NCBI GenBank assembly: GCA_044892505.1
Contig: CM097882.1
Location: forward strand, 209,374,001-209,438,000
From: Schmidtea nova
Lineage: Eukaryota
Direction: 5' to 3'
DNA length: 64,000 nt
Position 1 is the stretch's first letter; every line of letters begins with the position of its first letter. Of this stretch, positions 12,260 through 63,281 are shown one piece after another. Made by a program: the position numbers and the translations under genes. A model generated the notes under the pieces. It did no database searches and had not been told where the DNA came from. It worked only from the letters and a program-made list of their open reading frames with translations.

Positions 12260-12314
12260 ACTTAAAGAGAAAAGAGTAAAAGAAAGTGAAGACACTCAGC
12301 AGCTAAAGAACACG

Positions 12315-15585: not shown

Positions 15586-17115
15586 ATGTATCAAGAACCA
15601 CTACAGACATTAGGACCCAGAACAATGCAAATGATGCCAATGCCAAATATATACCCAGTTATACCAGAAGATTATAAACTAAGACGATGTAGAAGTATGG
15701 ATCCGCAAGGAGATTCACACACAATTGCAGTTATGTCATCGAATATAGGACCAGTATTAACCACAACCATAGAAATAAACGGAAAAGAAATAGAGGCAAT
15801 GATAGATACAGGAGCAAACATTTCGGCGATAGATATTAAATGGATACCGCAAGAACAGAGACAAGAGATTGAAAGAACAAATGTTCATGTAATTGCATGT
15901 AGTAAAGAGATAGTTGAAGTTGCAGGGAGATGGTGGGTGAAAATACGACACCAAAATATAGAAATTGAAACATATGTAGCAGTAATACCAGCTTTAAGCG
16001 TACCATGTATAATCGGAACAGATTTAATGCCAACATTATTCAAAGAAATAATAATTGATCTTGGAACAATGAGATTAAAAGACAGAACAGGAAAAATATG
16101 TGCCATGGAAGCAAAAGTAATAAGCTCAAAACAAATGATAATACCAGCAAGAAAAGAGAAAATATGTTATGTCAAAATATATCCTACAATAGAAGGGGAC
16201 GTGGTCTTCGAACCAATCAAGAGATTCAGAATAAATATGCTCAGAGCAGAGGAAATTAACACAGACAGTCAAGTAGACAGTGAGAAAATTGAGGTTGACA
16301 AAGAAATCGTACGAAAAGCCAAGGAAATAAACGAAAGATGGGAAATCAAACGAGAAAAAGACGTATTATGGGATATACGACAAATAATTAGCGATTACAC
16401 ACGAGGATTCCCAACCAAACCAGTTATAATCGAATTACTAAGAAAAATACCAGAGATACTCATATTACAAGATATAGGAGGCGCAACCGCACTACACAAT
16501 GCCATAAATTGGGGTAAAACGGAAAAGGTGAAAGAATATTTGAAAATAGCAAAAGAAACGAATCAAAATCTCGACATTGGAAATCGAGAATTGGAAACGC
16601 CAATGATGACAGCAACACTAAACTTAGCAGATAAAGAAATAGTAGATATACTGATAAAGGCCGATTTCAACTGGACAGCTCGTGATAGAAGAGAATATAC
16701 AGTTTTGAACCACGCAATAATGAGCGCAAATCAGATGATACTAAAACATATAACCACCAACCTCACATGGGAAATCGATGAATTAATCAAAGTAGAAATT
16801 ATAAAGGAAGCAATTCGGAAAGGAAACACAAGAACCATACGGAAACTAATACAATGGAAATGGCCGAATAACGAAACATGGGTATTAGACATAAATAAAG
16901 AATTTAGCGAAGGACAGAACGCGCTATTGAGATACCTATTAGAATTTACGTGCGATCAGAAAACAATGTTAGCACTAATAAACAGAGGGAAAATAAATAT
17001 CAGTAAGAACGAGGAAGAATACAAACTAGAAATCAAAAAGAAAGCGTTATTCAGGAAAATTTGGATATGGTGCCAAAAACAATTACGCCAAGACATTTAC
17101 GCTACAAGGATTTAA
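15586..17115 (+). CDS. Retropepsin aspartic protease fused to ankyrin repeats
   Basis: IEAMIDTGANISAI and CIIGTDLM protease motifs; GATALHNAINWG, ETPMMTA, YTVLNHAI ankyrin repeats. Confidence 0.88.
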   Translation: MYQEPLQTLGPRTMQMMPMPNIYPVIPEDYKLRRCRSMDPQGDSHTIAVMSSNIGPVLTTTIEINGKEIEAMIDTGANISAIDIKWIPQEQRQEIERTNVHVIACSKEIVEVAGRWWVKIRHQNIEIETYVAVIPALSVPCIIGTDLMPTLFKEIIIDLGTMRLKDRTGKICAMEAKVISSKQMIIPARKEKICYVKIYPTIEGDVVFEPIKRFRINMLRAEEINTDSQVDSEKIEVDKEIVRKAKEINERWEIKREKDVLWDIRQIISDYTRGFPTKPVIIELLRKIPEILILQDIGGATALHNAINWGKTEKVKEYLKIAKETNQNLDIGNRELETPMMTATLNLADKEIVDILIKADFNWTARDRREYTVLNHAIMSANQMILKHITTNLTWEIDELIKVEIIKEAIRKGNTRTIRKLIQWKWPNNETWVLDINKEFSEGQNALLRYLLEFTCDQKTMLALINRGKINISKNEEEYKLEIKKKALFRKIWIWCQKQLRQDIYATRI

Positions 17116-18482
17116 CCGATTTCCAAGAAAAGTATAAAACGATAATAAAGGAATACAAGAAAATAGTGGAGATATTAAACGATCCAGAAAAATTTAACCA
17201 AGCGATAAACCAGAAAGCGGAAAAGAGTAAAAGGATACTCACACCATTGTTCAACGCAAAAATAGATTACCAGGAAAGATTAGATGCAATACACAAAAAA
17301 GCAAAAGAACTATTACCAGAATTCAAGGATACTAAATACGCCTTAGAAATACTTGGCGCGATAGTAGAAAAAGTACACGCGTATGTAAAAGGAGTGTGCA
17401 ACGCAGATGATATAACAATTATAAAAAGAGAAATGCCAGTTGCATTTTTATTAACTAAGGAAAGAATAATGCCGATTCATAGAGCATTGAGAGCAGGAAA
17501 AGACAGTAAAGTAATCAAAATCGCAAGATTAATGCATCAATGTGGATGTGACATGAATATGATAGACGAAAAAGGAGACACCCTCATGATATACGCAGCA
17601 AGAGCAAAAACAAAAATCAGAGTATTAAAAGAGATATATAAAGCAAGCGCAGGATTAATCGGAAAAACTGTCAAAGACAACACAATATTGGACGTGACAT
17701 TATTAGGTCCAAATTGGGTAATGTTGAATTTCATTAAAACGATAACAAACCAGGAAGAGATAGATTATTTAACAGAGACTGTAAAACGACCCAGCGTATT
17801 GACAATGATGCAAAACATCAAATTAACAGAAGAAGTACTAAACTGGAAAATACTAAATACCAACAAACCAGCATTCAGAATCAACAATTTCATGGAGAAA
17901 AACCAAAATTGGTGTATCAAAAGCACACTATTAACTTATAAATGGCCTGAAATTGTAGAAATTTTCATGAGAAGAGAAGACCTGAGATTTACAAACAAGC
18001 CTAAAGAAACGGAAAAGACAGGAAAATGGAAAGAACTGATGAGAACACACCTCCAAAGTTGGATAAAAGCCAAGAAAGAAATTATACAGTTCCAGTTAGA
18101 CAACAAAAAGATACCCGAAAATATAGAATTCCAAGAATTCGAAGCAAGTAACCTAGCAACACTATACTATGCAAAACTAATAGAAGCAATTAATGTCGAG
18201 GACGACATTTTTAACGAGCCAGGGAGAGATAATAATACTGACAATGATGATGACGATGAGGAAAACAAGGACGACGAGAGAAATAATGACGATGATGATG
18301 ATGATGAGAACAGTCACGAAAATCCAGAAAACCACGAACAAACCAACAAAGAAGATGAGAGTCAAAAGAGAAATACAAAGAAGCAAGAACCCAAAGAACA
18401 AAGAGAAGACAGCGATAAAACAATCATGAAAAGAAAAGAACAAGTTACAAAAGGAATCCCTTTTTCAGACCAGAAGTATTAA
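17061..18482 (+). CDS. Ankyrin-repeat protein with acidic tail (probable frameshifted continuation of the PR-ANK ORF)
   Basis: MPIHRALRAG...DEKGDTLMIYAARA...KDNTILDVT; overlaps the previous ORF in the -1 frame. Confidence 0.75.
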   Translation: MDMVPKTITPRHLRYKDLTDFQEKYKTIIKEYKKIVEILNDPEKFNQAINQKAEKSKRILTPLFNAKIDYQERLDAIHKKAKELLPEFKDTKYALEILGAIVEKVHAYVKGVCNADDITIIKREMPVAFLLTKERIMPIHRALRAGKDSKVIKIARLMHQCGCDMNMIDEKGDTLMIYAARAKTKIRVLKEIYKASAGLIGKTVKDNTILDVTLLGPNWVMLNFIKTITNQEEIDYLTETVKRPSVLTMMQNIKLTEEVLNWKILNTNKPAFRINNFMEKNQNWCIKSTLLTYKWPEIVEIFMRREDLRFTNKPKETEKTGKWKELMRTHLQSWIKAKKEIIQFQLDNKKIPENIEFQEFEASNLATLYYAKLIEAINVEDDIFNEPGRDNNTDNDDDDEENKDDERNNDDDDDDENSHENPENHEQTNKEDESQKRNTKKQEPKEQREDSDKTIMKRKEQVTKGIPFSDQKY

Positions 18483-20350
18483 TATTCGCAATAATCATAA
18501 CACTCGTGGGACAATGTGAAGCAACGGAACAAGAGACATCAGTAGAAATGGAAAGCTCAATACAAAAAGCATCAACACAAATGATGAATTCAAAGGATAT
18601 TGAACAAGTATGTTGGGTAAAAACGAATTCTCGGAAATAGCAACCCATTACGATGCATAGTCCCAGAACCCGATCAAAAAACCATAATAATAGACGAAAT
18701 GGATATGGAAACATGGTACAGGATAAGTACAATCAAAAAACCTAAAGACGCAAAATCACACAAAACAGTTACATGCCAAGTATACGAGACACCTAAAGCA
18801 GCCAAAATAGTTCGATATGAGTTCACCAATGGAATAGACCTTCCAGTACCATTTTATTTTAAAATAACAAGAGCACCAACAATAAGAAAAGTCTTACAAC
18901 AACCAAGAACCAAAATAACAACACCGAGTATAAGGAATACAACAGATAAACCAGAAGCAAAAAGAAGGAATACGACGGATAAACCAGAAGCAAAAAGACA
19001 TACGAAACAAACCACAAGAGTAATCTATAATCCCAAAGTGTTATGTATAGCACTCATATTAACAATATTGAAGCGATTGGAAGAAGGGATAGAGATGGAT
19101 ACAATGACATTAGTAGACCTAGAAGATACACAAACGACAAATCAGAAATGTTGGTTTAGAAACGACGAGAAATTAGAATTAAGCGAACCAAGAGCAAGTC
19201 AGAAACAGGAAGCAGGGAAAACAAGCAAAGTAAACAAGATAGTAAAGATAAAAACAGACAGAACTCATAAACTATGTTTATTAGAAAAAGAAAGAAATAA
19301 GAAAGGAATAACCAATTGTAAAACATTTCAAGCAGGAAAAATAATAACGTTCTTAAGAAAAGTAGAAACAAACAAAATTTCCAGAAATGAACCATAACGT
19401 TAGAAATAACGGGAATAGAACAAAACGTAAAAGGAGTATGCTGGAGAAAATACGAGAAAGAAACGAATAAACATAAATCATCACAATGTCAAACAGTCAG
19501 AGGAACAACTGCAGTACAAATAAAAAGCTTAGAAAGAAATCAAACCTATAAAATATGCCTAGTAAAGGAAAATGATCAAATAACGAGAGAAGATTTAGAA
19601 TGCAGAATATACAAAGCGCCAAACAGAGTGAAAACCAATAGAACAATACGAAAGAATAAAAGACAACAAAAACCGAAGCATACCACTACCGAAAGTCAAA
19701 CAGAACCAGACAGGAATACCTCAGTAACACTTATACTTTGGAAATTAGATAAAAGAACAGTAGAAATATGTTGGTCAATGATCCAGAGACACGAAGGAAG
19801 ACAGCCACAACAATGCGAAAAGATGAACAAAGAAGAGGAGATCAGAATGGAGAACCTACAATTGGACAAAAAATACGAAATATGCGCAATAGAGAAGACA
19901 GATATATTCGGAAAGCAACAAGAAAGATGTAAAACATATTATACACCTACCAATACTACGATCAAAAGAAGAAGCAAGAAACTAACCTTCGGAGAACTGA
20001 ATCAAACAAAGGAAGAAAAGGAAAGTGAGGAAACAATAATAGATTCTTATGCAAAATGGAAACCAGAAAAAGTAATCCAAGAAGTCAAAAGGAAACAACA
20101 AGAACGACAACAATTGGAACTCAAATTAAAAGGACAATATGGAACAATGATCAATCAGAGCAAATTCACCCAAATCAATCTTAACAAGCAAGGAAGAGAA
20201 CTAATTGGAGTAGGAATACTGGCAGTAAGCGTACCAGTAATAATAATATTAGCAATAATATGGCTATTGGAAAAAATATTTATGGAAAAAGAAACCAACC
20301 AGACAATGGCCAGGTATAAAAATCATGAATTGCAAAATCAAAATACCTGA
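18450..20350 (+). pseudogene. Type I membrane protein with ~4 fibronectin type III-like repeats
   Basis: Signal-like VLIFAIIITLVGQCEA; repeated VCW...I..L....Y.IC......C..Y..P pattern; TM LIGVGILAVSVPVIIILAIIWLL; broken by stops and frameshifts. Confidence 0.6.
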
Positions 20351-43787: not shown

Positions 43788-46206
43788 CACTATTGCAACT
43801 TTCTGTGATTTATATTGTTGTGATATTTTTGAAAATAAAGATTCCTGTGTTGGTTCAATTTATTTTGTGAACGAAAGAACACCGGAGTCAGATACCAACC
43901 GACTTCTCATTAAAAACCCAACAGATTTCAACACAATACTTAGTCGTGATTGAGAAAGCTATAGTGTATAATGTCGGCAGTAAATTACCAAACAGTCACC
44001 TTAACCTTTCTTTGATAAAACTTTGATTTTGGAAAGTGTTTCGGTGCTTCATTCTTTTCCAACTATTGATAAAGATACCTTCTGTTATCGCAAACAATCT
44101 ATTTTCCATAACTATTTAAATCAGACATAGATATAAAAATATATTATTCTGAAGACAAATATCCAACACTCACATATAAAGTTCTTCACTGCATAACATC
44201 TAAAAAAGGACTTTAATAGTTTACTCATTATTGATACAGAAAACCTACAAACACATTTACATACCAACATTAAATTACAATAATCAAACATTATAAATAT
44301 TTTCTAATCTAGAAACAACGATTTTGACATATTATTACATAATAGGTTTATTTAATTAATTGTGCAATATCTAATTTTTCCTTACAATCGCACAGCACTT
44401 TACAATCAATAAATGGGTTTTTATTGTTATGTAATTGAAGCGCGATGCGGACCTCGTAGCGACGATTCCTTTGATTCTCGATAAATTCCTGCGGCACCTA
44501 CTTGTCAAGCTTTTTTGCCTTTCCAATTTGTTTCAAATGACAAACAATGATTAAATAACAAACACCGACTTCTTCCACTACTTCTCACGCCAATTTGAAT
44601 GGGTCTGGTTTGATAATTACCTTTAATTGGTCTACTAAAACAACAGAGGGGAAGTCGCGATCTTAATTGCCTTCAAGTTTGATTTCCCCACTTCGAAACT
44701 TTTTAAACCAATGAATGACACATATTTCAACATATTTACACAACAATTGTTACAAACTTGATTAATACTTTAAAATTTTCTTGTTTCACTATACCCTAGT
44801 TTAAATTCGTAATAATAAATTTGGCGAAAATCCGGTTTTGACATATTTTTATTAAATTAGTAAAAGTAAATAAAAAAATAATTTTAATTAAAAATGACAT
44901 CTAATCAGAATGATAATAAAATAACCTTTAAATCGATAAGTAATTTTGAGACATTTTTTAATTATCATTGAGATTTATCATAAAATTATTAATGTCAAAC
45001 TTATCTTGGCACCAACTTAATAATAAAACAATAAGTAAAACATCAATTAATGCAGATAACAGAATTTCATAATTATTAAGTAATTTAAATGTTTTGGAAT
45101 CTTTCTAGTGTGGTGACCCTTTCATGATATTTATCAAGTTGTGATGATCCCGGCGATAAATTTTGTTTTTTAGACAGAATTCGTTTTATTTCTGTTATGA
45201 TTTCATGTTCCTAATTGAAAGCTAAATGAAAAATTAAATGAAACAAAAATTTGAAAATTAAATCAAGTCGATGCAGTTCACTAGAAAAGATGGTTCACTA
45301 GTGATTGAAAAATAATCTAAAGAGAGTAACACCAAACTCAACTCTAAAACAATGATTAAATAATCATCTGTTATTGTTTTTTCAAAATTAAAAAGAAAGT
45401 TGACTTTTATTGCCAGAAGTTCGCAATGGGGTGTTGGATGAAATTACTTTACAAAATAAATAAATTATCTATCAAATCACATATATTTCACATAAATGCG
45501 AAAGTTAAAATAGTTAAAATATGAATATTTGAAACAGTTATGGGTTTAATTTTATCCATTCAAAATTCAAATTTAAATTCCATATATTTATAATATTATC
45601 AAAGTAGTGATTATTAAAACACTGATATTTTTAATATCATCTCCCCCTTTTCTAAGAATTTTTTAACCTTTTCTGCAATTTGATTCTTTTTTTCCATATA
45701 CTATTTCAAATGTTGAAAATTCCGTGAAGCTCTGTTGATTTGCGTAAATGTTGAATTCAATTCGTAGTAGTAATTCAAACAAATCTTTTCTACACAATTA
45801 TTTTTAAATGATGTTGTTTTCGTGTCTCTTGCAATTCATATTACACATTCAACTAATTCATTTGATTGATGTTGGTATGGTGATATTAATTCCTGTTTAA
45901 TGTTTAATTCTGCCATCTATTTTTCATATAATAACTTTCAAAATATTAAAGTCTATTTGTAAAAATACTGACTGGTTTACTAAATCGATATAACCAATAA
46001 TGCAGAATATGTTAAAAAATACATTGATCATTCATTTTAGATACTACAATTGGACAGTTGGACAGTTTTCTATGTCTTTCAATGATAACTACCAAATATT
46101 CTTTTAGCTTCTGCCTTATCCACATATGCAATATCTACTATGATTTGTTCAAGAAAATTTCTACTTTGTCTCAGAATCATTATTTCTTTAATTTTGCTTT
46201 GATTTA

Positions 46207-47629
46207 CAGGGTTTTTCAATTGAAATCAGATTTTTTTCAAATGAATTCAGAATATTTTCAAATGAAATCAGAATTTTTTCAAATGAATTCAGAATTTTTT
46301 CAAACGAAATCAGAACTATTTTAAACGAAATCAAATTCAAATATGTATATACAATATCCATAAAATATTAATATTTTTCAAAATTAATAACCATATGACA
46401 CCTCCAACAACAAAATCGCAATTGAGCAATGCTGCGAGAAAACTTATATGTATCAAATTTGATTCCGGCCAAAGCGTAAAAAAAATTGCTGCAGATCTCG
46501 TTATGAACTATAAAACTGTTTATAGTATTATTAACATTTACAAAACGACAGGAAGAATTGATAAAAACGAAGATAGAGGGTGCAAGTCCAAAAAATTGAG
46601 CAAAGAGCATTTAGTTTTTTTAAAAGAAAAAATTTCCGATGATTGTTCTACTCCGTTGAGATGTATGAAAAGAAGTTTGAGTGAGTCTATGAATGTTAAC
46701 GTATCGTTGGCCACAATTCATAGGTCGATCAAGGACTTTAATTTCTCTTTTAAACGAGTAGCTGCTCGCAACACTGCGGAAGCTATTGAGCGCAGGTATG
46801 AGTATGCCAATGAATATTTGGCATTAAACGAGGACCATGTCTTTTTTCTTGATGAAAGCGGTTTCAATTGCTCGATGAGATTGGGATATGGACGAAGCGA
46901 AGTAGGATCGCCTGCTCGGAAAGAAGTGAGAAGTATACGAAGTAAAAACTATTCAGTGTGCGCAGCAATCAGCAAAACGTCGATTTTGAATTTTGAAGTT
47001 GTAGAAGGTGGATACAATGCAGAGAAGTTTGAAAATTTTGTCTCTCAATTTATAGGAAATCTGCGATCGAAAGGAATATCGACAGGTACGATTATAATGG
47101 ATAATTGTACAATACATAAAAGTATTGGTGTACGCGATTTGATCAATAATTCTGGATTTACGTTACGCTTTTTACCACCCTATTCGCCGCAATTAAATCC
47201 GATTGAAGAGTGTTTCTCGAAATGGAAATCAATTGTCAAATCGGCTAATGTTCTAAATGTAATCGAGTTAAAAAACGCTATTGAAATGGGACACAATTCG
47301 ATAACCACGGAGGATTGTATCGGATTTTTCAACGACACGAGAAGGTTTGCATTAAAGGCGGTAAGAAGAGAAGAATTCTGATTAAAAGTTTTAACTACCA
47401 ATTTTTACTCAATCATGATTTCATTTAAGTGTATATAATATTTCATTAACCATTTAAATTCTGAATTCAATTAAAAAGTTCCCATATTTATTTAAGAAAT
47501 TATGATTTCGTTTAAAATAGTTCTGATTTCGTTTGAAAAAATTCTGAATTCATTTGAAAAAATTCTGATTTCATTTGAAAATATTCTGAATTCATTTGAA
47601 AAAAATCTGATTTCAATTGAAAAACCCTG
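46207..47629 (+). mobile_element. Tc1/IS630-like DD34E DNA transposon, apparently intact
   Basis: ~127-bp TIRs starting CAGGGTTTTTCAATTG with internal ~18-bp repeats; TA TSD on both sides. Confidence 0.95.
46395..47381 (+). CDS. DD34E transposase (HTH + DDE_3-type domain)
   Basis: FFLDESGF, IIMDNCTIH, LPPYSPQLNPIEE with 34 residues between D and E; uninterrupted 328 aa. Confidence 0.95.
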   Translation: MTPPTTKSQLSNAARKLICIKFDSGQSVKKIAADLVMNYKTVYSIINIYKTTGRIDKNEDRGCKSKKLSKEHLVFLKEKISDDCSTPLRCMKRSLSESMNVNVSLATIHRSIKDFNFSFKRVAARNTAEAIERRYEYANEYLALNEDHVFFLDESGFNCSMRLGYGRSEVGSPARKEVRSIRSKNYSVCAAISKTSILNFEVVEGGYNAEKFENFVSQFIGNLRSKGISTGTIIMDNCTIHKSIGVRDLINNSGFTLRFLPPYSPQLNPIEECFSKWKSIVKSANVLNVIELKNAIEMGHNSITTEDCIGFFNDTRRFALKAVRREEF

Positions 47630-48006
47630 TATATTTATTTTCGCACAGACGAGACATAGCTTTAAGTAATATTGTATAGTATTTAATATAGATGGCCAAA
47701 AATAATTGTCTTTAAGATAATTATAAACTTTCTTTGATTCAAGGTGACATAAATCTTTATTTATTCTGATCACAAATTCTTTAGCAAAATTGGATGAAAT
47801 CAAAGCTGCAAAGTTGTGTCCTTCTTCTAATACTAAAACTTCATCAATTATCTTTAACTTTTTCTGTTTTTATATACCTGACTAATTTTAGTATTGTGTC
47901 AAAGTAGTAAGATGTGTCTCCGATAACTTACTTTTGGTACTATCTTACTACTTGTCAAAAGACAGTAGCTAAAAGATTTTTATTAATAACTTTTATATTA
48001 ATAACT

Positions 48007-48132
48007 TATTAGGTTATTAATGATTAGTCGTTTGGTATCTGGCTACTTTGTTCTTTCTTTAACAACAATAAATTAAACCCAACACAATAATCTTTATTTT
48101 CAAAATTTCACTACACAAAGCAGAGAACAGTT
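48007..48132 (-). repeat. 3' part of a solo LTR split by the pPolB element
   Basis: Reverse complement matches 43792-43923; degenerate terminus TATTAGG preceded by AACT. Confidence 0.8.
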
Positions 48133-48164
48133 AGTAGGGAAAAGTGAGCGCACAGCCCCACTTT

Positions 48165-48960
48165 TTTCAACTAGCAACGGTTGCTAGGGTAAATACACAC
48201 ATCAAGATATTCCTCAATTCAGGTGTTGTCAGGGTGAACGTGCACACACATCAATATATATTACCCGATGAACCTGTTGCCAGGGTAAACACACACACAT
48301 CAAAATATTCCTCAAGACAGGTATTGCTAAGGTAAGCACACACATTACTATATAATTACCGGGGAGATGTTGCTAAGGTAAATACACACATCAAGATATT
48401 CCTCAATGCAGGTGTTGCTAGGGTAAACACACATCAATATATATTCCCCGATGAACCTGTTGCCAGGGTAAACACACACACATCAAAATATTCCTCGAGG
48501 CAGTTATTGCTAAGGTAAGCACACACATTAATATATAATTACCGGGAAGATATTGCTAGGGTAAATACGCACATTAAAGTGTAATGCATTGGAATCTGTT
48601 GCTAAGATAAACACGCGCCTATAAAGAGTCCCCAAGGAACCTGTAGTTAAGGTAAACACACGCACACATCATTATATATTCACTGAGGAACCTGTTTCCA
48701 GGGTAAACACACACACACATCAATATATATATATATATATATATATATTCATATAGCCAGATGTTGCTAAAGTTAACACACACATCAATATATAGTCCTG
48801 GGGAAGATATAGTTAAGGTAAACACACAGATCAATATATAGTCCCGGGGTAAATACACACATTAAAGTATAGTCTCCCTGTCACTATTGCTAAGGTAACC
48901 ACACATGTTAATATTTAAGTCCTGAAGTAACTATTGCTAAGATAAACACACCATTGTGTA
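48165..48960. repeat. Subterminal ~45-50-bp minisatellite of the pPolB element (mirror at ~61935-62720)
   Basis: Repeated core GCTA(A/G)GGTAAACACACACATCAA. Confidence 0.9.
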
Positions 48961-49448
48961 ACCCCCATGACTACTGTTGGTAACGTCAAAATACACAACA
49001 TATTAATTATTATCCGTACCACAAACGAAAACATGTTCTTTACTTAATTAAATGAAATTTTTGTTTGAATGTACTGGCTAACATTTTGAGTAATGGTTTT
49101 TTTAACTGATAACTTTAGAAAATCGAATGTGGCAACTATGAAAACAGATGGAATTAATTCGAGAATTGTGACAATAGTCAAAATTTTAAAGACGATTCAA
49201 CAGAGTGCAACTGCAAGAACAGATGAAATTTATTAATATTTGTAAACAAAAACAATTATTTTTACAATAAATAAAAACGAATTACACAAATCCTTAAAAT
49301 ATTACACTAATCAGGTGAAAACCCTGAACGATAAAACCAATTCAAATCTGGACAACACATAAAATTTTTAAAAACAATTAATCATAACAGTCTAAAGAAA
49401 TATAAAACTAAATATAATGAAACCAATTATTTTTTAACAAAGTTTTAT

Positions 49449-52400
49449 TCAATACAAATCTGAATTGGATATATAATTTGAATTGAGAGCTGGATCTGAA
49501 ACTGGAACACCAACCTGATCTTTTGATTGGTCTATAAACGAGCCACATCCCTTATAATGTCCGTATGCAAGACTTTCATTTTTATCAACCCAAAGTCTTT
49601 TATCATCAAGATTAGTCAAGGCAATTTTCGAATATTTATTAGTAAAGAGTTGATGATTCTTACTAACTATTCTCGACTGATCAACAGAAACTATTGAATT
49701 ATTATTATAACAATCCAGATACGACTGATGATTCAGTTTAGTATCCTTCAATGTTATACCCTTAGCCTTAATGCACTCTTCATCGCCTAAAAGACTATAA
49801 CACTTTGGTCTAAGGAATACCCACTCATCATACTTGAATCCTTTATTCTCGTCTTTGAATTTACCAATGACGGAATCTAGGTTCCTACTGTATAATGGGT
49901 GATTCGGATCATAATTAGAAGTGTCAAGTAAGTTATCTCTTATCATCGCAGGTAACAGAACATCTAACCTACAATTTCTAATCTCCAAGAAGAAAGAGTC
50001 AGTATCGCCTGCAACTATATTAATCTCACAGTTGAATTCATTACGATATTTTTGTAATTCTTCATACTGGAGTTGATACATCCTACGTTTCAACAAATCC
50101 AGTACAGTTTGACCAATGTAGCTGGGTCTATCTAAACACACAGAGTCCTTATTAAGCAAGACAGAAATTAGGTCATCGTCAATCCTATAAGTTTTTCTAA
50201 AAGTAGGTTTTGAAGTATATGTAATCAGTTTTGATGCTGAATTACATAGTCGTAAATTTAGTCGTTTCTTAAGATTTTCAACCGTTTTCCCATAAAGACT
50301 ATTATTCAAGAGTTTGTAATAGTTTTTATCTAAAGCCGTAGAAGATGCTGCTCTAAGTTCAGTGTTCGTATCAATATATTTTTTAAAGATGGGTTTCTGT
50401 TTGTACTGAACAGCCCGATGAACTCGTGTTATTTTAACACCCAAAGAAACAAAAAGCTTGAGAAGCCTCCAATGAACAACATAGTTGAACTTTGGATAAT
50501 GCGTCAGCATTAACTTCTCAACCTTTGAACCCGGAGCACACATTTTCTCTGCTGCTACCGGAAAATCATTTAATTTATCGTGAATTTCTGAAGGGATTTC
50601 AAGATCCACTTCAAAAGTCACGCCATAAGTCAAAATAGCCAAATCAGTATCCATTAATTTAATTAATTAATTTAATTTATTTTGATCTGTGATCCAACTA
50701 AATTCACCATAAGGTAATTTTTGACTTAAAGCCCACCCGTATAAATTATTTATGTCAATATATAAAAGTTCAGTCGTTTCGGAGGATACTACATGGTGCT
50801 TGTTGACAAATGTCAAACCACCACGGATCCCCCCTTCGAAAAAATTATAAATCTCCATATCCTGGAGCAATTCAATAGGTTCATCCAAGGTAATAAGCGC
50901 AGAAGCCCACGACATACCTGGAATCCCCAAGAAATTCAAAGGCTCAAGTCTATTGTGAGCTATAGATTTAGCCCTAAACTGTTGAAAGAAATCAGCAAGA
51001 AGAAAGACGTCAAGTTTTAAGTATATCATCATATAGTCACACAGAGTGTGACACTGGGATTCCCTCCAAATCACCAATGCCTTGTCATATTCGTCTTGTT
51101 TAACACCTTTCCAGATTGGTGGCAACTCATAAGTGTTGTTAAGAATTTCTAAAGATGTTGCAAAATCATAAGGAAAAATACCCTTACAGTCAACAATAGT
51201 CCCGGTGAATTCAGATCTAGTCAAAGGCAAACAAGTAAGAGTCTTAACAGCGTCATTTAAGCTAGAATTTACAAACTGACAAGAATCGATGAATTTAATT
51301 GTTAAATCGCCGACTCTTGCAGACAAAGTAAGGAATTTTTCACTCGTAGTTGGAATACATGATATTTTCCAAGTTGAAAAGTTAGCCAATCCATATTTAA
51401 GAATATGGTGCATGTCATAACCCTTTAAATTATGAAAAATAACGGGTAAAAACTTGTATAACCGACGGGATTGATTACAAGAATTACAAGCAGCTCCCAA
51501 AAATTCACCAGTGTAGTGATCATGGTCTCTGACTGGTTGTACTAAAGTTTTCCTACAAAGATAACAAATAGTAGCAGAATCAAAAGATTGTTGATTAGCC
51601 GCTGTCATAAAAAGAGGTTTCTTGTAATTAGTTCTATAAAAGGGATAAACAATAGTTTCAGAAATATCACTAATTTCAGTAAGAAAATTAGTAACGCAAT
51701 CAAGACCTAAGAAACTCTTGTAAATCTTTTCACCAGTGAAATTATTTACAAGTAAAAGACCGGCAGATATTGGGACATGTCTTTGAAAGTACTTATCATC
51801 AGCAGGTAAGATTGCCTCAAAATCGGCGTAAACAACAAAAGGTGGGGTAATTGTTTTGCTCCAATTACTAAATTGTAAATTTTTATTTCTAGGCAGAGTA
51901 TAAAGAGTTGTGCCTAATTGATTTTTAGCACACAACTGTTGATGACAATCGAATGCTTCCTGTTTTCGAAATCCATTCAAGCATCGATGACATCATATAC
52001 TTTGTACGCGAGCAACAGAAAGAGATTTATTGTCGTAATTTAAAAGCCTATCAATATCGGTAACTGCAATATAATGATATGCATCACCACTTTCCAACAA
52101 AATCAAGTTAATAGGAGTACCACCGACAACTTTTGACCTATGAATTATATCGACACAAGGGTGTTTAAAAACTTCAGGATTTGCCAAAGTATCAAGAAGA
52201 GCATCCTCATCATAAGAAAGAACGTTAATTGCAAGTCCAGGGTTTATAGCCTCAAATTTCGGAATATTACAAAGTCTCATGGGAATTAATTACATTTACT
52301 GTACAATGTTTCGCAACTAAAGATTGAGGGGTATTTATATGACCTCTACCACTCAATCGACTAATTTGGGCAAATTTAGTTAATACAAAATGAATTTCAT

Positions 52401-54112
52401 TAACTTTGTTAATAACCCAATTACTCCCTTTATCGTTAATTAATGCTATTTTTTCATTTAAAAGAGTGATACCTTCATCAAAAAAGTTATCACTCATGGG
52501 TCTCGCAGAATTTGAAATGATAAATGATTGAAATTCACCATCTTTTTCAAACTCTACATCAATGCAAAATTGTATTTTCACTGAACCCATCTCATTAATA
52601 ACATTATTTAATTTATTAATTAAAATATCAGGTAAAATTAAAGTTTTCAAAACCAAGTGAGAAACATCCATTTTTACAACAGCGTGAGATTTTCTCAAAT
52701 CAAATTTAACGTTAAGAAGAAGGGACCCACCATATTGAACATCTATGGTGTTAATGTCATTATTAAAACTTGTGTCAGAGTCGGAAAGAATATTCATATC
52801 GGACATTACCTCGTCAACTATATTACTTAATTTTCTAACTTTTGTAGGTAGTGGATTATCGATAAGGATTTTTCTTTTATTATTAATAATACTGTTATCA
52901 CTATTAATATCACTATTATTTATTGTTAAATTAAAAATCGATTTTTTCGAAGATCTAAATTTCCTTAAATGATCCTTATGGTCATCATAAAAGTTCAAAA
53001 AAGTCGAATTTTGGGTGGTCTTACATACGGGACATATAAAAAACGTGACTCCTTTATACGAATATCGGTAATATTTTCCCATTAATTCAATACATTTATT
53101 ATCATGAATTGATGATCGGCAAAATTTCGGAAAAAGTTTACCTTAAATATTAAAAAATAATTAAAAATAAATAAAAATAAATGACAAGTATTTTAATATT
53201 AAAATTAATGTCATTATACAATAATTAATTAATAATTACAATAATAAAAATTTAATTAAATAATTTAAATATTATGAAAAATAATATTAATTAATTTCAA
53301 TTATTATATTCTTAATTATATTTGTTTTAATAATAAGTTTTACTCAAAGATGTGAAATTTAAATTATTTACAAGTAATTTAAAAATATTAATTTAATATA
53401 ATAATTTTCATATAGAACACATTATTTACTATGATAGAAAATAAATTATTTATTAATAATTAATTTACAAAAACTTTAATTACTAAAACATTATTAAAAA
53501 AATAAATAAATAAATAAATAAATAAATAAAACAATAAGTAATAATAATCAATATTCAAATTAATTTTATATTCAAATTAATTAATTAATTATTATAAAAA
53601 ATTAGAATAATTATAATTAAAACTAGAATTGTTTTAATAATTAGTTATAAAATAAAAATTCAAATTCAAAAATTGTGAATAATTTTCAAAAATTAGTAAA
53701 CACTACAAAACTAATTAAAAAAAATAATTATTAATTTAAATAATATAGTTAATTATTTTAAGTTTTCATTAGTATTTATTAACTTATCAATGATAAATAT
53801 TACAAATCTCTTTGAATAATAAATAAAGATTATCCGTTAAATTACAAAATTGATAAAGAAAACTAATTATTAAATAATTTAAATTAATATTTATATACAA
53901 AGGTAATTAATTATAAATTGCAATCATTAAATAAATCGATATTTACAGTTATTTTCTTTTCTCTTTTCATCGTTAAGTTTATTTTTCATTAAACTATCCA
54001 TTGTTTCAGATGATTCAACATTTTTACCAATAACGTTGTTCATATTGTTGTCGACATCGTTGTTGTAATCGTTGTTCTTGGTAATATCCATATTATTGTT
54101 GGTATTGTTCAT
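49449..54112 (-). pseudogene. Protein-primed DNA polymerase B, left arm (2 in-frame stops + 128-bp deletion)
   Basis: ORFs 52267-53082, 51993-52280, 50667-51980, 49449-50654 plus upstream exon 53927-54112; lacks the bases equivalent to 58491-58618. Confidence 0.9.
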
Positions 54113-55350
54113 TTTATCTAAAATAAGTTGATTATTTAAAAACTTTAAAACAAAAATAACTTACCAAATTTAGGTTGCAGTAAAAAGTGATTCTTAAATG
54201 AAAAACTATTGTTTATATACTAAATTCAAAAATTTTTAACCAATCAAATTCGAGCAAACATACACACACGTTTGTAAATACCACAGTGTAATTTATTTTT
54301 ACAATAAATTTTTTTTTTTTTTTAAATTATTAAACACATAATTTATTGTTATAAATATATGTCATCAATTAATGTTAAATATAAATTATTATTAAAATAC
54401 AATGTAATAAATTAAGATTAATTTTAAAATTAAATTATACTAATAAATTATAAAAATTATTACAAGTAATTAAAATTAAATAAAAAAAAAATTAATTATT
54501 AGATAAATTGTAAATTAATTGAAATAAAAATTAATTAATTGAAATAAAAATTAATTAATTAAAATAAAAATTAATTAATTAAAAGTAAACTAATTATTCA
54601 CAAAGTTATTAGTTTTTACATAATGTATTACTGTAAAGAATTAGAATATAAATTGTTACAGTGAAAACACAATTAAAGTATCAAATAAAATCAATTATTT
54701 ACAACAAAACCCATATGTAACACGATAATTTGTAAATTTCTAATCAAACAATTTAGTGGAAAATTTATACATATAATGAAAACTCTAAAAAATTATTTTA
54801 AAATTACAAAAATAACAAGAAAAAATGTGTGCAACATGAAAAATGACTAATTTTATATTTTTATTTAAACCATTTTATAGGAAATTAAATTCTACATATA
54901 CACTGTTAATGTGAAAACTCATTATCTTTATTACAACATCAAAGAAAACCAATTAATAACAACAAAACGCGTGTGCAGCTCGCAAATCACAACATTTTGA
55001 ATTTTCAAGTTGGCCATCTTGTAGAGAATAAAATTCTGTCTATACATTGTTACAGCGAGAAAAACGAATAATTTCAATTTGAGGCATAAATAAATAAAAA
55101 AGAAAAATTTTAAATGTTGATAGTAGAGTAGGGGGAGCGCCCAAAAACAGGAACAGACCCCCTCCCCCCCTAAAAAATTTTTTTTACCCCCCCCCCCCGC
55201 AAAAAAAAATTGTTTAAATGAAGTGGATTTTTTAAATTTTTTATTTTGTTTAAATTAAGTGAATTTTTAATTTTTAATTTAGTTTAAATGAAGTGAATTT
55301 TTTAATTTTAATTTTTTGTTTAAATGAAGTCAATTTAATTTTATTATTTT

Positions 55351-55587
55351 NNNNNNNNNNNNNNNNNNNNNNNNNNNNNNNNNNNNNNNNNNNNNNNNNN
55401 NNNNNNNNNNNNNNNNNNNNNNNNNNNNNNNNNNNNNNNNNNNNNNNNNNNNNNNNNNNNNNNNNNNNNNNNNNNNNNNNNNNNNNNNNNNNNNNNNNNN
55501 NNNNNNNNNNNNNNNNNNNNNNNNNNNNNNNNNNNNNNNNNNNNNNNNNNNNNNNNNNNNNNNNNNNNNNNNNNNNNNNNNNNNNNN
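55351..55587. other. Assembly gap (237 N)
   Basis: N run at the centre of the palindrome; true size unknown. Confidence 1.
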
Positions 55588-56529
55588 TATTTTAATTTAT
55601 TTGTTTTTTTCGGGGGGGGGGTCTCTTCCTGTTCTTGGGCGCTCCCCCTACTCTACTATCAACATTTAAAATTTTTCTTTTTTCTTTATTTATGCCTCAA
55701 ATTGAAATTATTCGTTTTTCTCGCTGTAACAATGTATAGACAGAAATTTATTCTCTACAAGATGGCCAAAATGAAAATTTTAAATGTTGTGTTTTGCGCG
55801 CTACACACATGTTTTGTTGTTATTAATTGGTTTTCTTTAATGTTGTAATAAAGATAATGAGTTTTCACATTAACAGTGTATATGTAGAATTTAATTTCCT
55901 ATAAAATGGTTTAAATAAAAATATAAAATTAGTCATTTTTCATGTTGCACACATTTTTTCTTGTTATTTTTGTAATTTTAAAATAATTTTTTAGAGTTTT
56001 CATTATATGTATAAATTTTCCACTAAATTGTTTGATTAGAAATTTACAAATTATCGTGTTACATATGGGTTTTGTTGTAAATAATTGATTTTATTTGATA
56101 CTTTAATTGTGTTTTCACTGTAACAATTTATATTCTAATTCTTTACAGTAATACATTATGTAAAAACTAATAACTTTGTGAATAATTAGTTTACTTTTAA
56201 TTAATTAATTTTTATTTTAATTAATTAATTTTTATTTCAATTAATTAATTTTTATTTCAATTAATTTACAATTTATCTAATAATTAATTTTTTTTTTATT
56301 TAATTTTAATTACTTGTAATAATTTTTATAATTTATTAGTATAATTTAATTTTAAAATTAATCTTAATTTATTACATTGTATTTTAATAATAATTTATAT
56401 TTAACATTAATTGATGACATATATTTATAACAATAAATTATGTGTTTAATAATTTAAAAAAAAAAAAAAAAATTTATTGTAAAAATAAATTACACTGTGG
56501 TATTTACAAACGTGTGTGTATGTTTGCTC

Positions 56530-56590
56530 GAATTTGATTGGTTAAAAATTTTTGAATTTAGTATATAAACAATAGTTTTTCATTTAAGAA
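56530..56590 (+). promoter_or_regulatory. Putative Pol II promoter of pPolB
   Basis: GATTGG (inverted CCAAT), TATATAAA about 25 nt downstream, then TTTTCATTT Inr-like; mirrored in the left arm. Confidence 0.55.
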
Positions 56591-56668
56591 TCACTTTTTA
56601 CTGCAACCTAAATTTGGTAAGTTATTTTTGTTTTAAAGTTTTTAAATAATCAACTTATTTTAGATAAA

Positions 56669-59600
56669 ATGAACAATACCAACAATAATATGGATATTAC
56701 CAAGAACAACGATTACAACAACGATGTCGACAACAATATGAACAACGTTATTGGTAACAATGTTGAATCATCTGAAACAATGGATAGTTTAATGAAAAAT
56801 AAACTTAACGATGAAAAGAGAAAAGAAAATAACTGTAAGTATCGATTTATTTAATGATTGCAATTTATAATTAATTACCTTTGTATATAAATATTAATTT
56901 AAATTATTTAATAATTAGTTTTCTTTATCAATTTTGTAATTTAACGGGTAATCTTTATTTATTATTCAAAGAGATTTGTAATATTTATCATTGATAAGTT
57001 AATAAATACTAATGAAAACTTAAAATAATTAACTATATTATTTAAATTAATAATTATTTTTTTTAATTAGTTTTGTAGTGTTTACTAATTTTTGAAAATT
57101 ATTCACAATTTTTGAATTTGAATTTTTATTTTATAACTAATTATTAAAACAATTCTAGTTTTAATTATAATTATTCTAATTTTTTATAATAATTAATTAA
57201 TTAATTTGAATATAAAATTAATTTGAATATTGATTATTATTACTTATTGTTTTATTTATTTATTTATTTATTTTTTTAATAATGTTTTAGTAATTAAAGT
57301 TTTTGTAAATTAATTATTAATAAATAATTTATTTTCTATCATAGTAAATAATGTGTTCTATATGAAAATTATTATATTAAATTAATATTTTTAAATTACT
57401 TGTAAATAATTTAAATTTCACATCTTTGAGTAAAACTTATTATTAAAACAAATATAATTAAGAATATAATAATTGAAATTAATTAATATTATTTTTCATA
57501 ATATTTAAATTATTTAATTAAATTTTTATTATTGTAATTATTAATTAATTATTGTATAATGACATTAATTTTAATATTAAAATACTTGTCATTTATTTTA
57601 ATTTATTTTTAATTATTTTTTAATATTTAAGGTAAACTTTTTCCGAAATTTTGCCGATCATCAATTCATGATAATAAATGTATTGAATTAATGGGAAAAT
57701 ATTACCGATATTCGTATAAAGGAGTCACGTTTTTTATATGTCCCGTATGTAAGACCACCCAAAATTCGACTTTTTTGAACTTTTATGATGACCATAAGGA
57801 TCATTTAAGGAAATTTAGATCTTCGAAAAAATCGATTTTTAATTTAACAATAAATAATAGTGATATTAATAGTGATAACAGTATTATTAATAATAAAAGA
57901 AAAATCCTTATCGATAATCCACTACCTACAAAAGTTAGAAAATTAAGTAATATAGTTGACGAGGTAATGTCTGATATGAATATTCTTTCCGACTCTGACA
58001 CAAGTTTTAATAATGACATTAACACCATAGATGTTCAATATGGTGGGTCCCTTCTTCTTAACGTTAAATTTGATTTGAGAAAATCTCACGCTGTTGTAAA
58101 AATGGATGTTTCTCACTTGGTTTTGAAAACTTTAATTTTACCTGATATTTTAATTAATAAATTAAATAATGTTATTAATGAGATGGGTTCAGTGAAAATA
58201 CAATTTTGTATTGATGTAGAGTTTGAAAAAGATGGTGAATTTCAATCATTTATCATTTCAAATTCTGCGAGACCCATGAGTGATAACTTTTTTGATGAAG
58301 GTATCACTCTTTTAAATGAAAAAATAGCATTAATTAACGATAAAGGGAGTAATTGGGTTATTAACAAAGTTAATGAAATTCATTTTGTATTAACTAAATT
58401 TGCCCAAATTAGTCGATTGAGTGGTAGAGGTCATATAAATACCCCTCAATCTTTAGTTGCGAAACATTGTACAGTAAATGTAATTAATTCCGATGATTTA
58501 TGTTTCATTTATAGTATTTTAGCTATTTTGAAATATGATGAGGTAACTGATCGTAATAATAGAAATAGAGCAAATAATTATAATATTTCTGATCTTGACT
58601 TTGACCCTTCAGAAATGCCCATGAGACTTTGTAATATTCCGAAATTTGAGGCTATAAACCCTGGACTTGCAATTAACGATCTTTCTTATGATGAGGATGC
58701 TCTTCTTGATACTTTGGCAAATCCTGAAGTTTTTAAACACCCTTGTGTCGATATAATTCATAGGTCAAAAGTTGTCGGTGGTACTCCTATTAACTTGATT
58801 TTGTTGGAAAGTGGTGATGCATATCATTATATTGCAGTTGCCGATATTGATAGGCTTTTAAATTACGACAATAAATCTCTTTCTGTTGCTCGCGTACAAA
58901 GTATATGATGTCATCGATGCTTGAATGGATTTCGAAAACAGGAAGCATTCGATTGTCATCAACAGTTGTGTGCTAAAAATCAATTAGGCACAACTCTTTA
59001 TACTCTGCCTAGAAATAAAAATTTACAATTTAGTAATTGGGGCAAAACAATTACCCCACCTTTTGTTGTTTACGCCGATTTTGAGGCAATCTTACCTGCT
59101 GATGATAAGTACTTTCAAAGACATGTCCCAATATCTGCCGGTCTTTTACTTGTAAATAATTTCACTGGTGAAAAGATTTACAAGAGTTTCTTAGGTCTTG
59201 ATTGCGTTACTAATTTTCTTACTGAAATTAGTGATATTTCTGAAACTATTGTTTATCCCTTTTATAGAACTAATTACAAGAAACCTCTTTTTATGACAGC
59301 GGCTAATCAACAATCTTTTGATTCTGCTACTATTTGTTATCTTTGTAGGAAAACTTTAGTACAACCAGTCAGAGACCATGATCACTACACTGGTGAATTT
59401 TTGGGAGCTGCTTGTAATTCTTGTAATCAATCCCGTCGGTTATACAAGTTTTTACCCGTTATTTTTCATAATTTAAAGGGTTATGACATGCACCATATTC
59501 TTAAATATGGATTGGCTAACTTTTCAACTTGGAAAATATCATGTATTCCAACTACGAGTGAAAAATTCCTTACTTTGTCTGCAAGAGTCGGCGATTTAAC

Positions 59601-61452
59601 AATTAAATTCATCGATTCTTGTCAGTTTGTAAATTCTAGCTTAAATGACGCTGTTAAGACTCTTACTTGTTTGCCTTTGACTAGATCTGAATTCACCGGG
59701 ACTATTGTTGACTGTAAGGGTATTTTTCCTTATGATTTTGCAACATCTTTAGAAATTCTTAACAACACTTATGAGTTGCCACCAATCTGGAAAGGTGTTA
59801 AACAAGACGAATATGACAAGGCATTGGTGATTTGGAGGGAATCCCAGTGTCACACTCTGTGTGACTATATGATGATATACTTAAAACTTGACGTCTTTCT
59901 TCTTGCTGATTTCTTTCAACAGTTTAGGGCTAAATCTATAGCTCACAATAGACTTGAGCCTTTGAATTTCTTGGGGATTCCAGGTATGTCGTGGGCTTCT
60001 GCGCTTATTACCTTGGATGAACCTATTGAATTGCTCCAGGATATGGAGATTTATAATTTTTTCGAAGGGGGGATCCGTGGTGGTTTGACATTTGTCAACA
60101 AGCACCATGTAGTATCCTCCGAAACGACTGAACTTTTATATATTGACATAAATAATTTATACGGGTGGGCTTTAAGTCAAAAATTACCTTATGGTGAATT
60201 TAGTTGGATCACAGATCAAAATAAATTAAATTAATTAATTAAATTAATGGATACTGATTTGGCTATTTTGACTTATGGCGTGACTTTTGAAGTGGATCTT
60301 GAAATCCCTTCAGAAATTCACGATAAATTAAATGATTTTCCGGTAGCAGCAGAGAAAATGTGTGCTCCGGGTTCAAAGGTTGAGAAGTTAATGCTGACGC
60401 ATTATCCAAAGTTCAACTATGTTGTTCATTGGAGGCTTCTCAAGCTTTTTGTTTCTTTGGGTGTTAAAATAACACGAGTTCATCGGGCTGTTCAGTACAA
60501 ACAGAAACCCATCTTTAAAAAATATATTGATACGAACACTGAACTTAGAGCAGCATCTTCTACGGCTTTAGATAAAAACTATTACAAACTCTTGAATAAT
60601 AGTCTTTATGGGAAAACGGTTGAAAATCTTAAGAAACGACTAAATTTACGACTATGTAATTCAGCATCAAAACTGATTACATATACTTCAAAACCTACTT
60701 TTAGAAAAACTTATAGGATTGACGATGACCTAATTTCTGTCTTGCTTAATAAGGACTCTGTGTGTTTAGATAGACCCAGATACATTGGTCAAACTGTACT
60801 GGATTTGTCGAAACTTAGGATGTATCAACTCCAGTATGAAGAATTACAAAAATATCGTAATGAATTCAACTGTGAGATTAATATAGTTGCATGCGATACT
60901 GACTCTTTCTTCTTGGAGATTAGAAATTGTAGGTTAGATGTTCTGTTACCTGCGATGATAAGAGATAACTTACTTGACACTTCTAATTATGATCCGAATC
61001 ACCCATTATACAGTAGGAACCTAGATTCCGTCATTGGTAAATTCAAAGACGAGAATAAAGGATTCATGTATGATGAGTGGGTATTCCTTAGACCAAAGTG
61101 TTATAGTCTTTTAGGCGATGAAGAGTGCATTAAGGCTAAGGGTATAACATTGAAGGATACTAAACTGAATCATCAGTCGTATCTGGATTGTTATAATAAT
61201 AATTCAATAGTTTCTGTTGATCAGTCGAGAATAGTTAGTAAGAATCATCAACTCTTTACTAATAAATATTCGAAAATTGCCTTGACTAATCTTGATGATA
61301 AAAGACTTTGGGTTGATAAAAATGAAAGTCTTGCATACGGACATTATAAGGGATGTGGCTCGTTTATAGACCAATCAAAAGATCAGGTTGGTGTTCCAGT
61401 TTCAGATCCAGCTCTCAATTCAAATTATATATCCAATTCAGATTTGTATTGA
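56669..61452 (+). pseudogene. Protein-primed DNA polymerase B (Polinton-type, EndoVII-like + exonuclease + polymerase), putatively spliced; in-frame stops at 58906-08 and 60232-34
   Basis: CYLC...VRDHDHYTGEFLGAACNSCN, VIFHNLKGYD, YIDINNLYGWA, KLLNNSLYGK, DTDS, KCY; three ORFs all in frame 1; candidate intron 56835-57631. Confidence 0.92.
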
Positions 61453-62764
61453 ATAAAACTTTGTTAAAAAATAATTGGTTTCATTATATTTAGTTTTATA
61501 TTTCTTTAGACTGTTATGATTAATTGTTTTTAAAAATTTTATGTGTTGTCCAGATTTGAATTGGTTTTATCGTTCAGGGTTTTCACCTGATTAGTGTAAT
61601 ATTTTAAGGATTTGTGTAATTCGTTTTTATTTATTGTAAAAATAATTGTTTTTGTTTACAAATATTAATAAATTTCATCTGTTCTTGCAGTTGCACTCTG
61701 TTGAATCGTCTTTAAAATTTTGACTATTGTCACAATTCTCGAATTAATTCCATCTGTTTTCATAGTTGCCACATTCGATTTTCTAAAGTTATCAGTTAAA
61801 AAAACAATTACTCAAAATGTTAGCCAGTACATTCAAACAAAAATTTCATTTAATTAAGTAAAGAACATGTTTTCGTTTGTGGTACGGATAATAATTAATA
61901 TGTTGTGTATTTTGACGTTACCAACAGTAGTCATGGGGGTTACACAATGGTGTGTTTATCTTAGCAATAGTTACTTCAGGACTTAAATATTAACATGTGT
62001 GGTTACCTTAGCAATAGTGACAGGGAGACTATACTTTAATGTGTGTATTTACCCCGGGACTATATATTGATCTGTGTGTTTACCTTAACTATATCTTCCC
62101 CAGGACTATATATTGATGTGTGTGTGTTAACTTTAGCAACATCTGGCTATATGAATATATATATATATATATATTGATGTGTGTGTGTGTTTACCCTGGA
62201 AACAGGTTCCTCAGTGAATATATAATGATGTGTGTGTGTTTACCTTAACTACAGGTTCCTTGGGGACTCTTTATACGCGCGTGTTTATCTTAGCAACAGA
62301 TTCCAATGCACTACACTTTAATGTGCGTATTTACCCTAGCAATATCTTCCCGGTAATTATATATTAATGTGTGTGCTTACCTTAGCAATAACTGCCTCGA
62401 GGAATATTTTGATGTGTGTGTGTTTACCCTGGCAACAGGTTCATCGGGGAATATATATTGATGTGTGTTTACCCTAGCAACACCTGCATTGAGGAATATC
62501 TTGATGTGTGTATTTACCTTAGCAACATCTCCCCGGTAATTATATAGTAATGTGTGTGCTTACCTTAGCAATACCTGTCTCGAGGAATATTTTGATGTGT
62601 GTGTGTTTACCCTGGCAACAGGTTCATCGGGGAATATATATATTGATGTGTGTGCACGTTCACCCTGACCACACCTGAATTGAGGAATATCTTGATGTGT
62701 GTATTTACCCTAGCAACCGTTGCTAGTTGAAAAAAGTGGGGCTGTGCGCTCACTTTCCCCTACT

Positions 62765-63281
62765 AACTGTTCTCTGCACTCTTGCGTTAGGGTAGGTGTC
62801 CCAATGGGAAATCTCCTTTTCTGATAAGCAAGAAAATCGTGTAATTCTGGATTCTAACCTTTAGCTCTCTCTTTCAGGTTTTTTGATTGCCGCTTCTGTT
62901 TTTTCACGACAAAGTTTGGTCCCGCAAAACTGGCGATATCAACAATTTGCTCTCAGTTTATATATTGACTTTCCCTTTCATCCTATCTCCTTAATTTAAT
63001 CTGTCAAAACAAAATAATAACATTTTTTGTCGTTAAATAACTTAATTTGAAGAAATTGGGTTTTCCACCGGGTTTAACTTATTTTGGGCTAATTGGTTTT
63101 TTGACTTTTCCCGGAGAATCCTTTAACCATTCAATTCTCTTGAATAATCTAATAATTTTGTTGATGCCCCGGGTTTCCCATTAACATGTGCTTCCCATTA
63201 GCTTGGGTTCTCTAATTAACTAATAAATTATTTATTAATTTTTAATTAATTTTTATTTATCGAATATATTTTTCTGGGGAC

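What the first reader, a model, noticed from the sequence alone, without database searches (positions are those of the whole stretch)
56530..57700. pPolB appears to be a spliced Pol II gene
Promoter-like ATTGG/TATATAAA; 47-nt 5' UTR intron GTAAGT...TTTTAG (56617-56663); Asn-rich exon from ATG 56669; phase-1 donor AACT|GTAAGT (56835); 797-nt AT-rich intron; acceptor TTTAAG| (57631). Splicing fuses ...KENN-C-KLFPKFCRSSIHDNKCIELMGKYY in frame and stop-free to the polymerase. The sites are mirrored in the left arm. Introns suggest long nuclear adaptation or domestication of a viral-type replicase (inference).
Basis: partly seen in the sequence, partly recalled or inferred. Interest (0 to 1): 0.7.

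Follow-up and report, generated by a model that had tools for sequence, protein, structure and literature searches.

The report
Spliced polymerase in palindromic Polinton
A virus-like jumping element (Polinton/Maverick type) in what is likely a flatworm genome has a DNA polymerase gene that is likely spliced at two host-type introns, which is unusual for elements described as intron-free, but this copy carries stop codons and belongs to a large young mobile family rather than being a domesticated host gene.

Summary
All splice coordinates are right, and the gene model is likely real although no RNA junction was seen. Seven divergent polymerase types in this genome start the big exon at the same AG|G. 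Four unrelated first exons end in a phase-1 T|GTAAGT. The split codon would give a Cys that intronless relatives carry at this place. Sister elements also have short introns in the integrase QTDLG/KEF motif and in the protease.

The frame is not stop-free: both arms have stops before and inside the polymerase. The left donor differs at +5, and the left arm is frameshifted. Domestication is not supported: this is one arm of a 14.6-kb palindromic, polymerase-only derivative of a high-copy Polinton family, whose sister copies have AGT ends and 6-bp target duplications.

Papers call core Polinton genes intronless. This scan has already noted intron-bearing and palindromic Polintons on other DNA. 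Verdict: new variant of a known kind.

The parts
48133..62764 (.). Whole element: near-perfect palindrome of two ~7-kb arms, each a terminal repeat plus one pPolB gene, genes diverging from the centre; ends AGTAGGG...CCCTACT; centre not readable in this window
   Evidence: sister copies have gap-free 280-1000-nt asymmetric centres
56537..56569 (+). CCAAT-box-like ATTGG and TATA box TATATAAA (predicted Pol II promoter)
   Evidence: same TATA context in family B; ATTGG plus TATAAA before an intronless relative (L116)
56617..56663 (+). Predicted 47-nt 5' UTR intron, GTAAGT..TTTTAG
   Evidence: family B has a 51-nt GTAAGT..TTTTAG intron of different inner sequence at the same place; donor found in 51 of 54 arms
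56664..56834 (+). Predicted first coding exon; ATG at 56669, 55 Asn-rich codons plus one base (phase 1)
   Evidence: 0 frameshift indels in 11 sister copies despite 67 substitutions per kb
56835..57631 (+). Predicted 797-nt phase-1 intron, GTAAGT..TTTAAG, 10% GC
   Evidence: 756-830 nt in family A (one 1253), 1567-1849 in family B, 128 in family F
57632..61452 (+). Large pPolB exon: Cys/His-rich N-terminus, likely terminal-protein and vOTU-like region (inferred), exonuclease and polymerase; broken by two stops
   Evidence: domain order from PMC11161782 passages
58906..58908 (+). In-frame TGA before the exonuclease/polymerase part
60232..60234 (+). In-frame TAA inside the polymerase part, shared by many sister copies
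   Evidence: 21 of 140 top hits have open frames of 858-870 aa
61452..61457 (+). AATAAA overlapping the final stop (possible polyadenylation signal)
   Evidence: seen directly
53142..54164 (-). Left-arm mirror: UTR intron 54164-54118, ATG 54112, donor 53946 (GTAAAT), acceptor 53142

Best explanation
This is the likely spliced 5' end of the protein-primed DNA polymerase gene of a Polinton/Maverick family, lying here in a palindromic, polymerase-only copy that has two stop codons. In intact family members, host RNA polymerase II would start after the TATA box and the spliceosome would remove a short UTR intron and a long phase-1 intron. The first exon would then supply the start codon, a low-complexity leader and the first base of a Cys codon that completes the N-terminal Cys/His cluster (inferred). 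The introns belong to the mobile lineage: it copies itself as DNA and expresses its genes in the nucleus, so a gained intron is not purged (inferred). Sister families have gained or lost introns at different places (presence and absence shown; direction not). This copy cannot encode a whole polymerase (shown) and likely spread using proteins from complete elements.
For: (1) Of 37 loci examined, 35 gave hits, with 63 arms carrying the exon-start motif. All 63 have AG right before it, though the pattern did not ask for AG. All 54 arms with the promoter in reach have a stop-free phase-1 exon ending at GTAAGT (arms and copies are related, not independent). (2) Seven exon types, the six aligned being 45-89% identical to a family-A copy, all begin AG|G(T/C) after stop-rich AT-rich DNA. 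Four unrelated first exons (166, 79, 94, 148 nt) end T|GTAAGT in phase 1, with introns from 128 to about 1850 nt. (3) Relatives without this intron have the Cys in one frame: L116, L112, L114. So do 5 of 5 database proteins that hold the N-terminal core, out of 150 examined. (4) Internal control: a 44-nt phase-1 GT..AG intron splits QTDLG/KEF in the family-B integrase. That motif is contiguous in 116 of 120 database homologs and in another family of this genome. A phase-2 intron follows the protease start in families B, D and E and, by eye, in three metagenome relatives. (5) L112 has four 42-46-nt introns elsewhere in pPolB, with every exon open in the implied phase. (6) Mobile, not domesticated: 69 of 140 top polymerase hits have open frames of 1240 aa or more; 6-bp target duplications are seen in 10 of 14 elements whose ends were printed (read by eye).
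Against: No transcript evidence was obtained. In families D and E no phase-1 GT(A/G)AG(T/A) donor was found within 3.2 kb. E shows two short introns with open exons but could not be walked to the acceptor, and D stayed unresolved. Nine of 63 arms have no promoter or first exon within 2.4 kb. A Met 20 codons into the big exon is conserved in most families and could serve as a start. The donor search asked for T-GTAA..TAT, and 9 of its 37 loci were picked by exon-1 likeness. AT-rich DNA takes indels easily, so the indel contrast is weak. No protein of the 305 held matched the exon-1 peptide.
Confidence: 0.87

Rival explanations
1. No splicing: the polymerase starts at the Met 20 codons into the large frame, and the upstream exon is a separate short frame or chance.
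For: That Met is conserved in most families and gene callers use it (P0157, P0123). No RNA junction has been seen. Donors are unresolved in families D and E.
Against: The 20 codons before it keep the L-[FY]-x-x-[FY]-C..H..C pattern across six families and have no start codon of their own. Intronless relatives start upstream of the Cys. The integrase and protease introns cannot be explained this way.
Confidence: 0.08
2. A domesticated host gene derived from a viral-type replicase.
For: Host-type promoter, introns and AATAAA.
Against: Two stops and a frameshifted arm; very many near-identical copies; Polinton ends and target duplications in sister copies; complete elements in the same genome.
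Confidence: 0.02
3. The introns are real and act as a control point: the start codon sits on a small exon so that tissue-specific splicing or intron retention decides where the polymerase is made.
For: Layout kept across families while exon-1 sequence and intron length are replaced. An unspliced transcript would stop 5 codons after the donor.
Against: Donors match the strong consensus. Close relatives do without this intron. Nothing measured shows regulation.
Confidence: 0.12

Closest known systems
Polinton/Maverick elements of vertebrates and nematodes (PMC8097293 passages; 10.1101/2022.07.12.499685 passages)
   Same: [quoted passage not shown]
   Different: Those papers report intronless core genes, with introns only in cargo. 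Here pPolB, integrase and protease have predicted spliceosomal introns, and this copy is a polymerase-only palindrome.
Introner-invaded eupolintoviral elements of dinoflagellates (PMC12166617 abstract and passages)
   Same: Spliceosomal-type introns inside integrated Polinton-like elements
   Different: There the introns are young transposon insertions in a protist. Here they are AT-rich introns of unrelated sequence and length at shared positions across families of a likely animal host; no introner test was made.
Adenovirus E2B polymerase and preterminal-protein mRNAs
   Same: Related protein-primed polymerase on a spliced Pol II transcript. A start codon on a small upstream exon is recalled and was suggested by note e1-7879951; the passages of PMC7851563 confirm only that E2B mRNAs exist and are rare.
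   Different: Adenoviruses do not integrate and encode the terminal protein separately. Homology of the splice sites was not tested.
Group I introns in cryptophyte Polinton-like viruses (PMC12220804 passages)
   Same: Introns in Polinton-like elements
   Different: Self-splicing, in a small gene beside the capsid gene, not GT-AG spliceosomal

Membership tests
Polinton/Maverick | Protein-primed family B polymerase | tested here: met
   PF03175 at E 1e-19 and 5e-9 on the two pieces; broken in this copy, frames of 1240 aa or more in 69 of 140 top hits
Polinton/Maverick | Retroviral-like integrase in the element | tested here: not met
   No such frame of 150 aa or more in 48133-62764; present in related full elements (PF00665), whose polymerase is 83% identical in the aligned part to a family-A copy
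Polinton/Maverick | Packaging ATPase, cysteine protease, capsid genes | tested here: not met
   Absent from this copy. In full elements: PF04665, PF00770, PF05829. The capsid label rests on an Atlas feature hit 0.98 to a cluster with PF21738 on 30% of members; no Pfam or PDB sequence hit.
Polinton/Maverick | Terminal inverted repeats with AGT-type ends | tested here: met
   AGTAGGG..CCCTACT at 48133 and 62764, shared with full elements; AGT as the family motif is recalled
Polinton/Maverick | 6-bp target site duplication | tested here: inconclusive
   Not in this copy (13 nt of flank are mirrored instead); seen in 10 of 14 sister elements, the other 4 printouts did not show the ends clearly
Polinton/Maverick | Intronless core genes (as described) | tested here: not met
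   Predicted introns in pPolB, integrase and protease
Spliceosomal (U2-type) intron | GT..AG ends with consensus donor and T-rich 3' end, phases matching | tested here: met
Spliceosomal (U2-type) intron | Removal from RNA | not testable with these tools
   The runs offered could not settle it (see Tried and rejected)
Domesticated transposon gene | Single copy, intact frame, no mobile ends | tested here: not met

The most novel reading that the evidence does not exclude
A freshwater Polinton clade lives as a nuclear, splicing-dependent element that keeps gaining introns in core genes. The long intron here arose at a ready-made splice site, since an intronless relative's Cys-Lys-Leu codons already spell GTAAGT at this place (L112). 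The intron now serves as a swap point between leader and polymerase modules: family C has the family-A leader on a 67%-identical exon. The family also spreads as two kinds of palindromic half-element, polymerase-only and integrase/ATPase/capsid-only, that may complement each other like a split genome.
Probability: 0.3. Interest if true: 0.75.

Novelty: new variant of a known kind. Interest (0 to 1): 0.5.

Why it matters
Polinton core genes are described as intron-free, and surveys use intron-blind gene callers for that reason. Intron-bearing families would then be scored as broken or mis-started. This genome holds many families with the same gene with and without a given intron (integrase: present in B and E, absent in D), so intron gain in a DNA virus-like element can be placed on a tree and dated. 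It also shows that introns are no sign of domestication in these elements.

Tried and rejected
RNA: no RNA holder listed (four runs of unknown kind, one study, contigs only). Laid on the promoter-to-intron stretch they cover exons and intron alike. None of the 15 joints listed matches the 47-nt intron (7 more not shown), and no listed loose end lies at the donor (536 not shown). The stretch laid did not include the acceptor, so the large junction was not testable. No evidence either way.

Protein searches: the large exon with lengths 'longer' scored none of 4,929 candidates. Viral contigs gave nothing with the capsid-like protein. No protein held matches exon 1, and a too-narrow motif found 0 of 150 (redone).

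Explanations rejected: an assembly artefact for the palindrome, since sister copies have gap-free centres and target duplications and 23 divergent pairs lie among 140 hits (hand count). Another genetic code or hidden introns for the two stops, since the codons differ, no GT..AG surrounds them, and many copies are open there. The bacterial promoter scan is irrelevant here.

Literature: nine searches found no paper on spliceosomal introns in animal Polinton core genes or on palindromic polymerase-only Polintons. Kapitonov and Jurka 2006 and the 2024 review were not held, Repbase entries cannot be searched, and no supplements were read, so absence from print is not established. Passages without relevant content: PMC10748475, PMC11296320, 10.1101/2024.03.25.586562, PMC8502044, 10.1101/2025.02.07.637071.

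Full report
Observation. The phases fit, so the split codon would read Cys. Two GTAAGT in this region arose in 4 of 500 shuffles. The claim 'stop-free to the polymerase' is wrong: the frame has TGA at 58906 and TAA at 60232, the first before the PF03175 region and the second inside it. Both are in the left arm too, which also has a GTAAAT donor and a frameshifting loss of about 130 nt.

Context. The gene is one arm of a 14.6-kb palindrome (48133-62764). The genome is 1.25 Gb, and the host is inferred to be a planarian from a Burro-like element in the window; Maverick expansions in planarians are mentioned in 10.64898/2025.12.11.693146 (passages). The exon-1 region has 1,446 first-look candidates, and the 40 scored are all about 100% identical. 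Of 140 scored polymerase hits, 69 have open frames of 1240 aa or more and 46 fall in 23 divergent pairs (hand count). Sister palindromes have gap-free centres and AGTAGGG ends, and 10 of 14 elements whose ends were printed show 6-bp target duplications. Related complete elements carry ATPase, pX, integrase, protease, a TBP-like gene and capsid-like frames. So the window holds a non-autonomous, polymerase-only derivative of a Polinton family, not a domesticated gene.

Evidence for splicing within the genome. In 37 loci (9 picked by exon-1 likeness, the rest by the polymerase domain), 63 arms had the exon-start motif and all 63 had AG directly before it. Fifty-four had the promoter within 2.4 kb, and all 54 had a stop-free phase-1 exon ending at GTAAGT. 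Nine had no promoter in reach, and two loci gave no hit. These copies are relatives, so the weight lies with divergent families. Seven exon types begin AG|G(T/C) after stop-rich AT-rich DNA; six were aligned and are 45-89% identical to a family-A copy. Family B has an unrelated 79-nt first exon, its own 51-nt UTR intron and a 1.6-1.85-kb intron. Families F and G have 94- and 148-nt phase-1 frames ending T|GTAAGT, with introns of 128 and 499 nt. Families D and E did not give a matching donor: E shows two short introns with open exons, and D is unresolved. In 11 family-A copies exon 1 has no frameshift indel while the intron has 89 (weak, as all are compared with the window).

Evidence from outside. 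Of 51 metagenome loci I examined 14. L116, L112 and L114 run from Met through the Cys into the Cys/His cluster with no intron at this place. Five of 150 database proteins hold that N-terminal core, and all 5 have the upstream Cys. L112 has four 42-46-nt introns further on, every exon open in the implied phase. In the family-B integrase a 44-nt phase-1 intron splits QTDLG/KEF, a motif contiguous in 116 of 120 homologs; family E has an intron there too and family D does not. A phase-2 intron follows the protease start in B, D and E and, by eye, in L112, L114 and L116. Splicing is therefore a property of this clade's core genes. What is missing is a transcript, which the runs on offer could not supply.

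Mechanism. Shown: sites, phases, conservation, family structure, stops. Inferred: Pol II transcription, splicing, a leader exon that supplies the start codon and completes a Cys of the N-terminal cluster ahead of the terminal-protein and vOTU-like domains (domain order from PMC11161782 passages; not tested structurally), retention of introns because the element copies itself as DNA, and spread of this broken palindrome with the help of complete elements. Confidence 0.87. Rivals: an internal start without splicing (0.08), domestication (0.02), and splicing as a control point, which is compatible with the main reading (0.12).

Comparison. Vertebrate Mavericks are reported intronless (PMC8097293 passages), nematode core genes likewise with introns only in cargo (10.1101/2022.07.12.499685 passages), and a protist survey assumes endogenous viruses have no introns (PMC10120064 passage). 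Known exceptions are introners in dinoflagellate elements (PMC12166617 abstract and passages) and group I introns in cryptophyte elements (PMC12220804 passages). Nine searches found no account of this in animal Polinton core genes, but the founding paper, a major review and Repbase could not be read. Earlier notes of this scan report intron-bearing Polinton genes, a mini-exon leader and palindromic Polinton satellites in other genomes; these are unchecked and are not counted as support.

Verdict. A likely real spliced gene model in a broken copy of a young, high-copy, intron-bearing Polinton family. It is a new variant of a known kind, interest 0.5. The boldest reading, ongoing intron gain plus complementary palindromic half-elements, has probability 0.3 and interest 0.75.

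Noticed in passing
G000:C2:154129000-154148999 (L091, L092) and many pairs: Palindromic half-elements of the opposite kind: two converging arms of ATPase, pX, intronless integrase, minor and major capsid-like genes, with one protease in the middle, no polymerase, AGT ends and a 6-bp target duplication.
   Followed up: partly
L047:4922-5362 (-): Full elements carry a TBP-like gene (PF00352, E 2e-13) beside the ATPase.
   Followed up: no
L047:3100-4430 and L048:7300-8630: The terminal inverted repeat of family B includes the 3' end of the polymerase gene, so a second copy of about 190 C-terminal codons sits at the far end.
   Followed up: no
L112:1590-1610: An intronless relative's own codons at the junction spell GTAAGT, and in the window both the intron and the large exon begin GTAA: fits intron gain at a proto-splice site.
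   Followed up: partly
L028-L031: Family C joins the family-A promoter, first exon and intron (94% identical) to a polymerase exon only 67% identical, with the switch at the acceptor.
   Followed up: partly
window 60232-60234: The second stop is shared by 5 of 7 family-A palindromes with a readable large exon and probably by 21 of 140 top hits: a polymerase-dead lineage that kept spreading.
   Followed up: partly
window 6181-20350: Pieces of a giant Gypsy-like element with RING, gag zinc knuckle, mononegavirus-like fusion protein (PF24664), protease and ankyrin, as described for planarian Burro elements (PMC6431247 passages); basis for inferring a planarian host.
   Followed up: partly
window 46202-47634: Tc1/mariner element with 132-nt inverted ends and a DDE_3 transposase frame.
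   Followed up: no
window 48120-48132 and 62765-62777: 13 nt of flank outside the element's ends are mirrored instead of directly repeated, so this copy has no target duplication.
   Followed up: no
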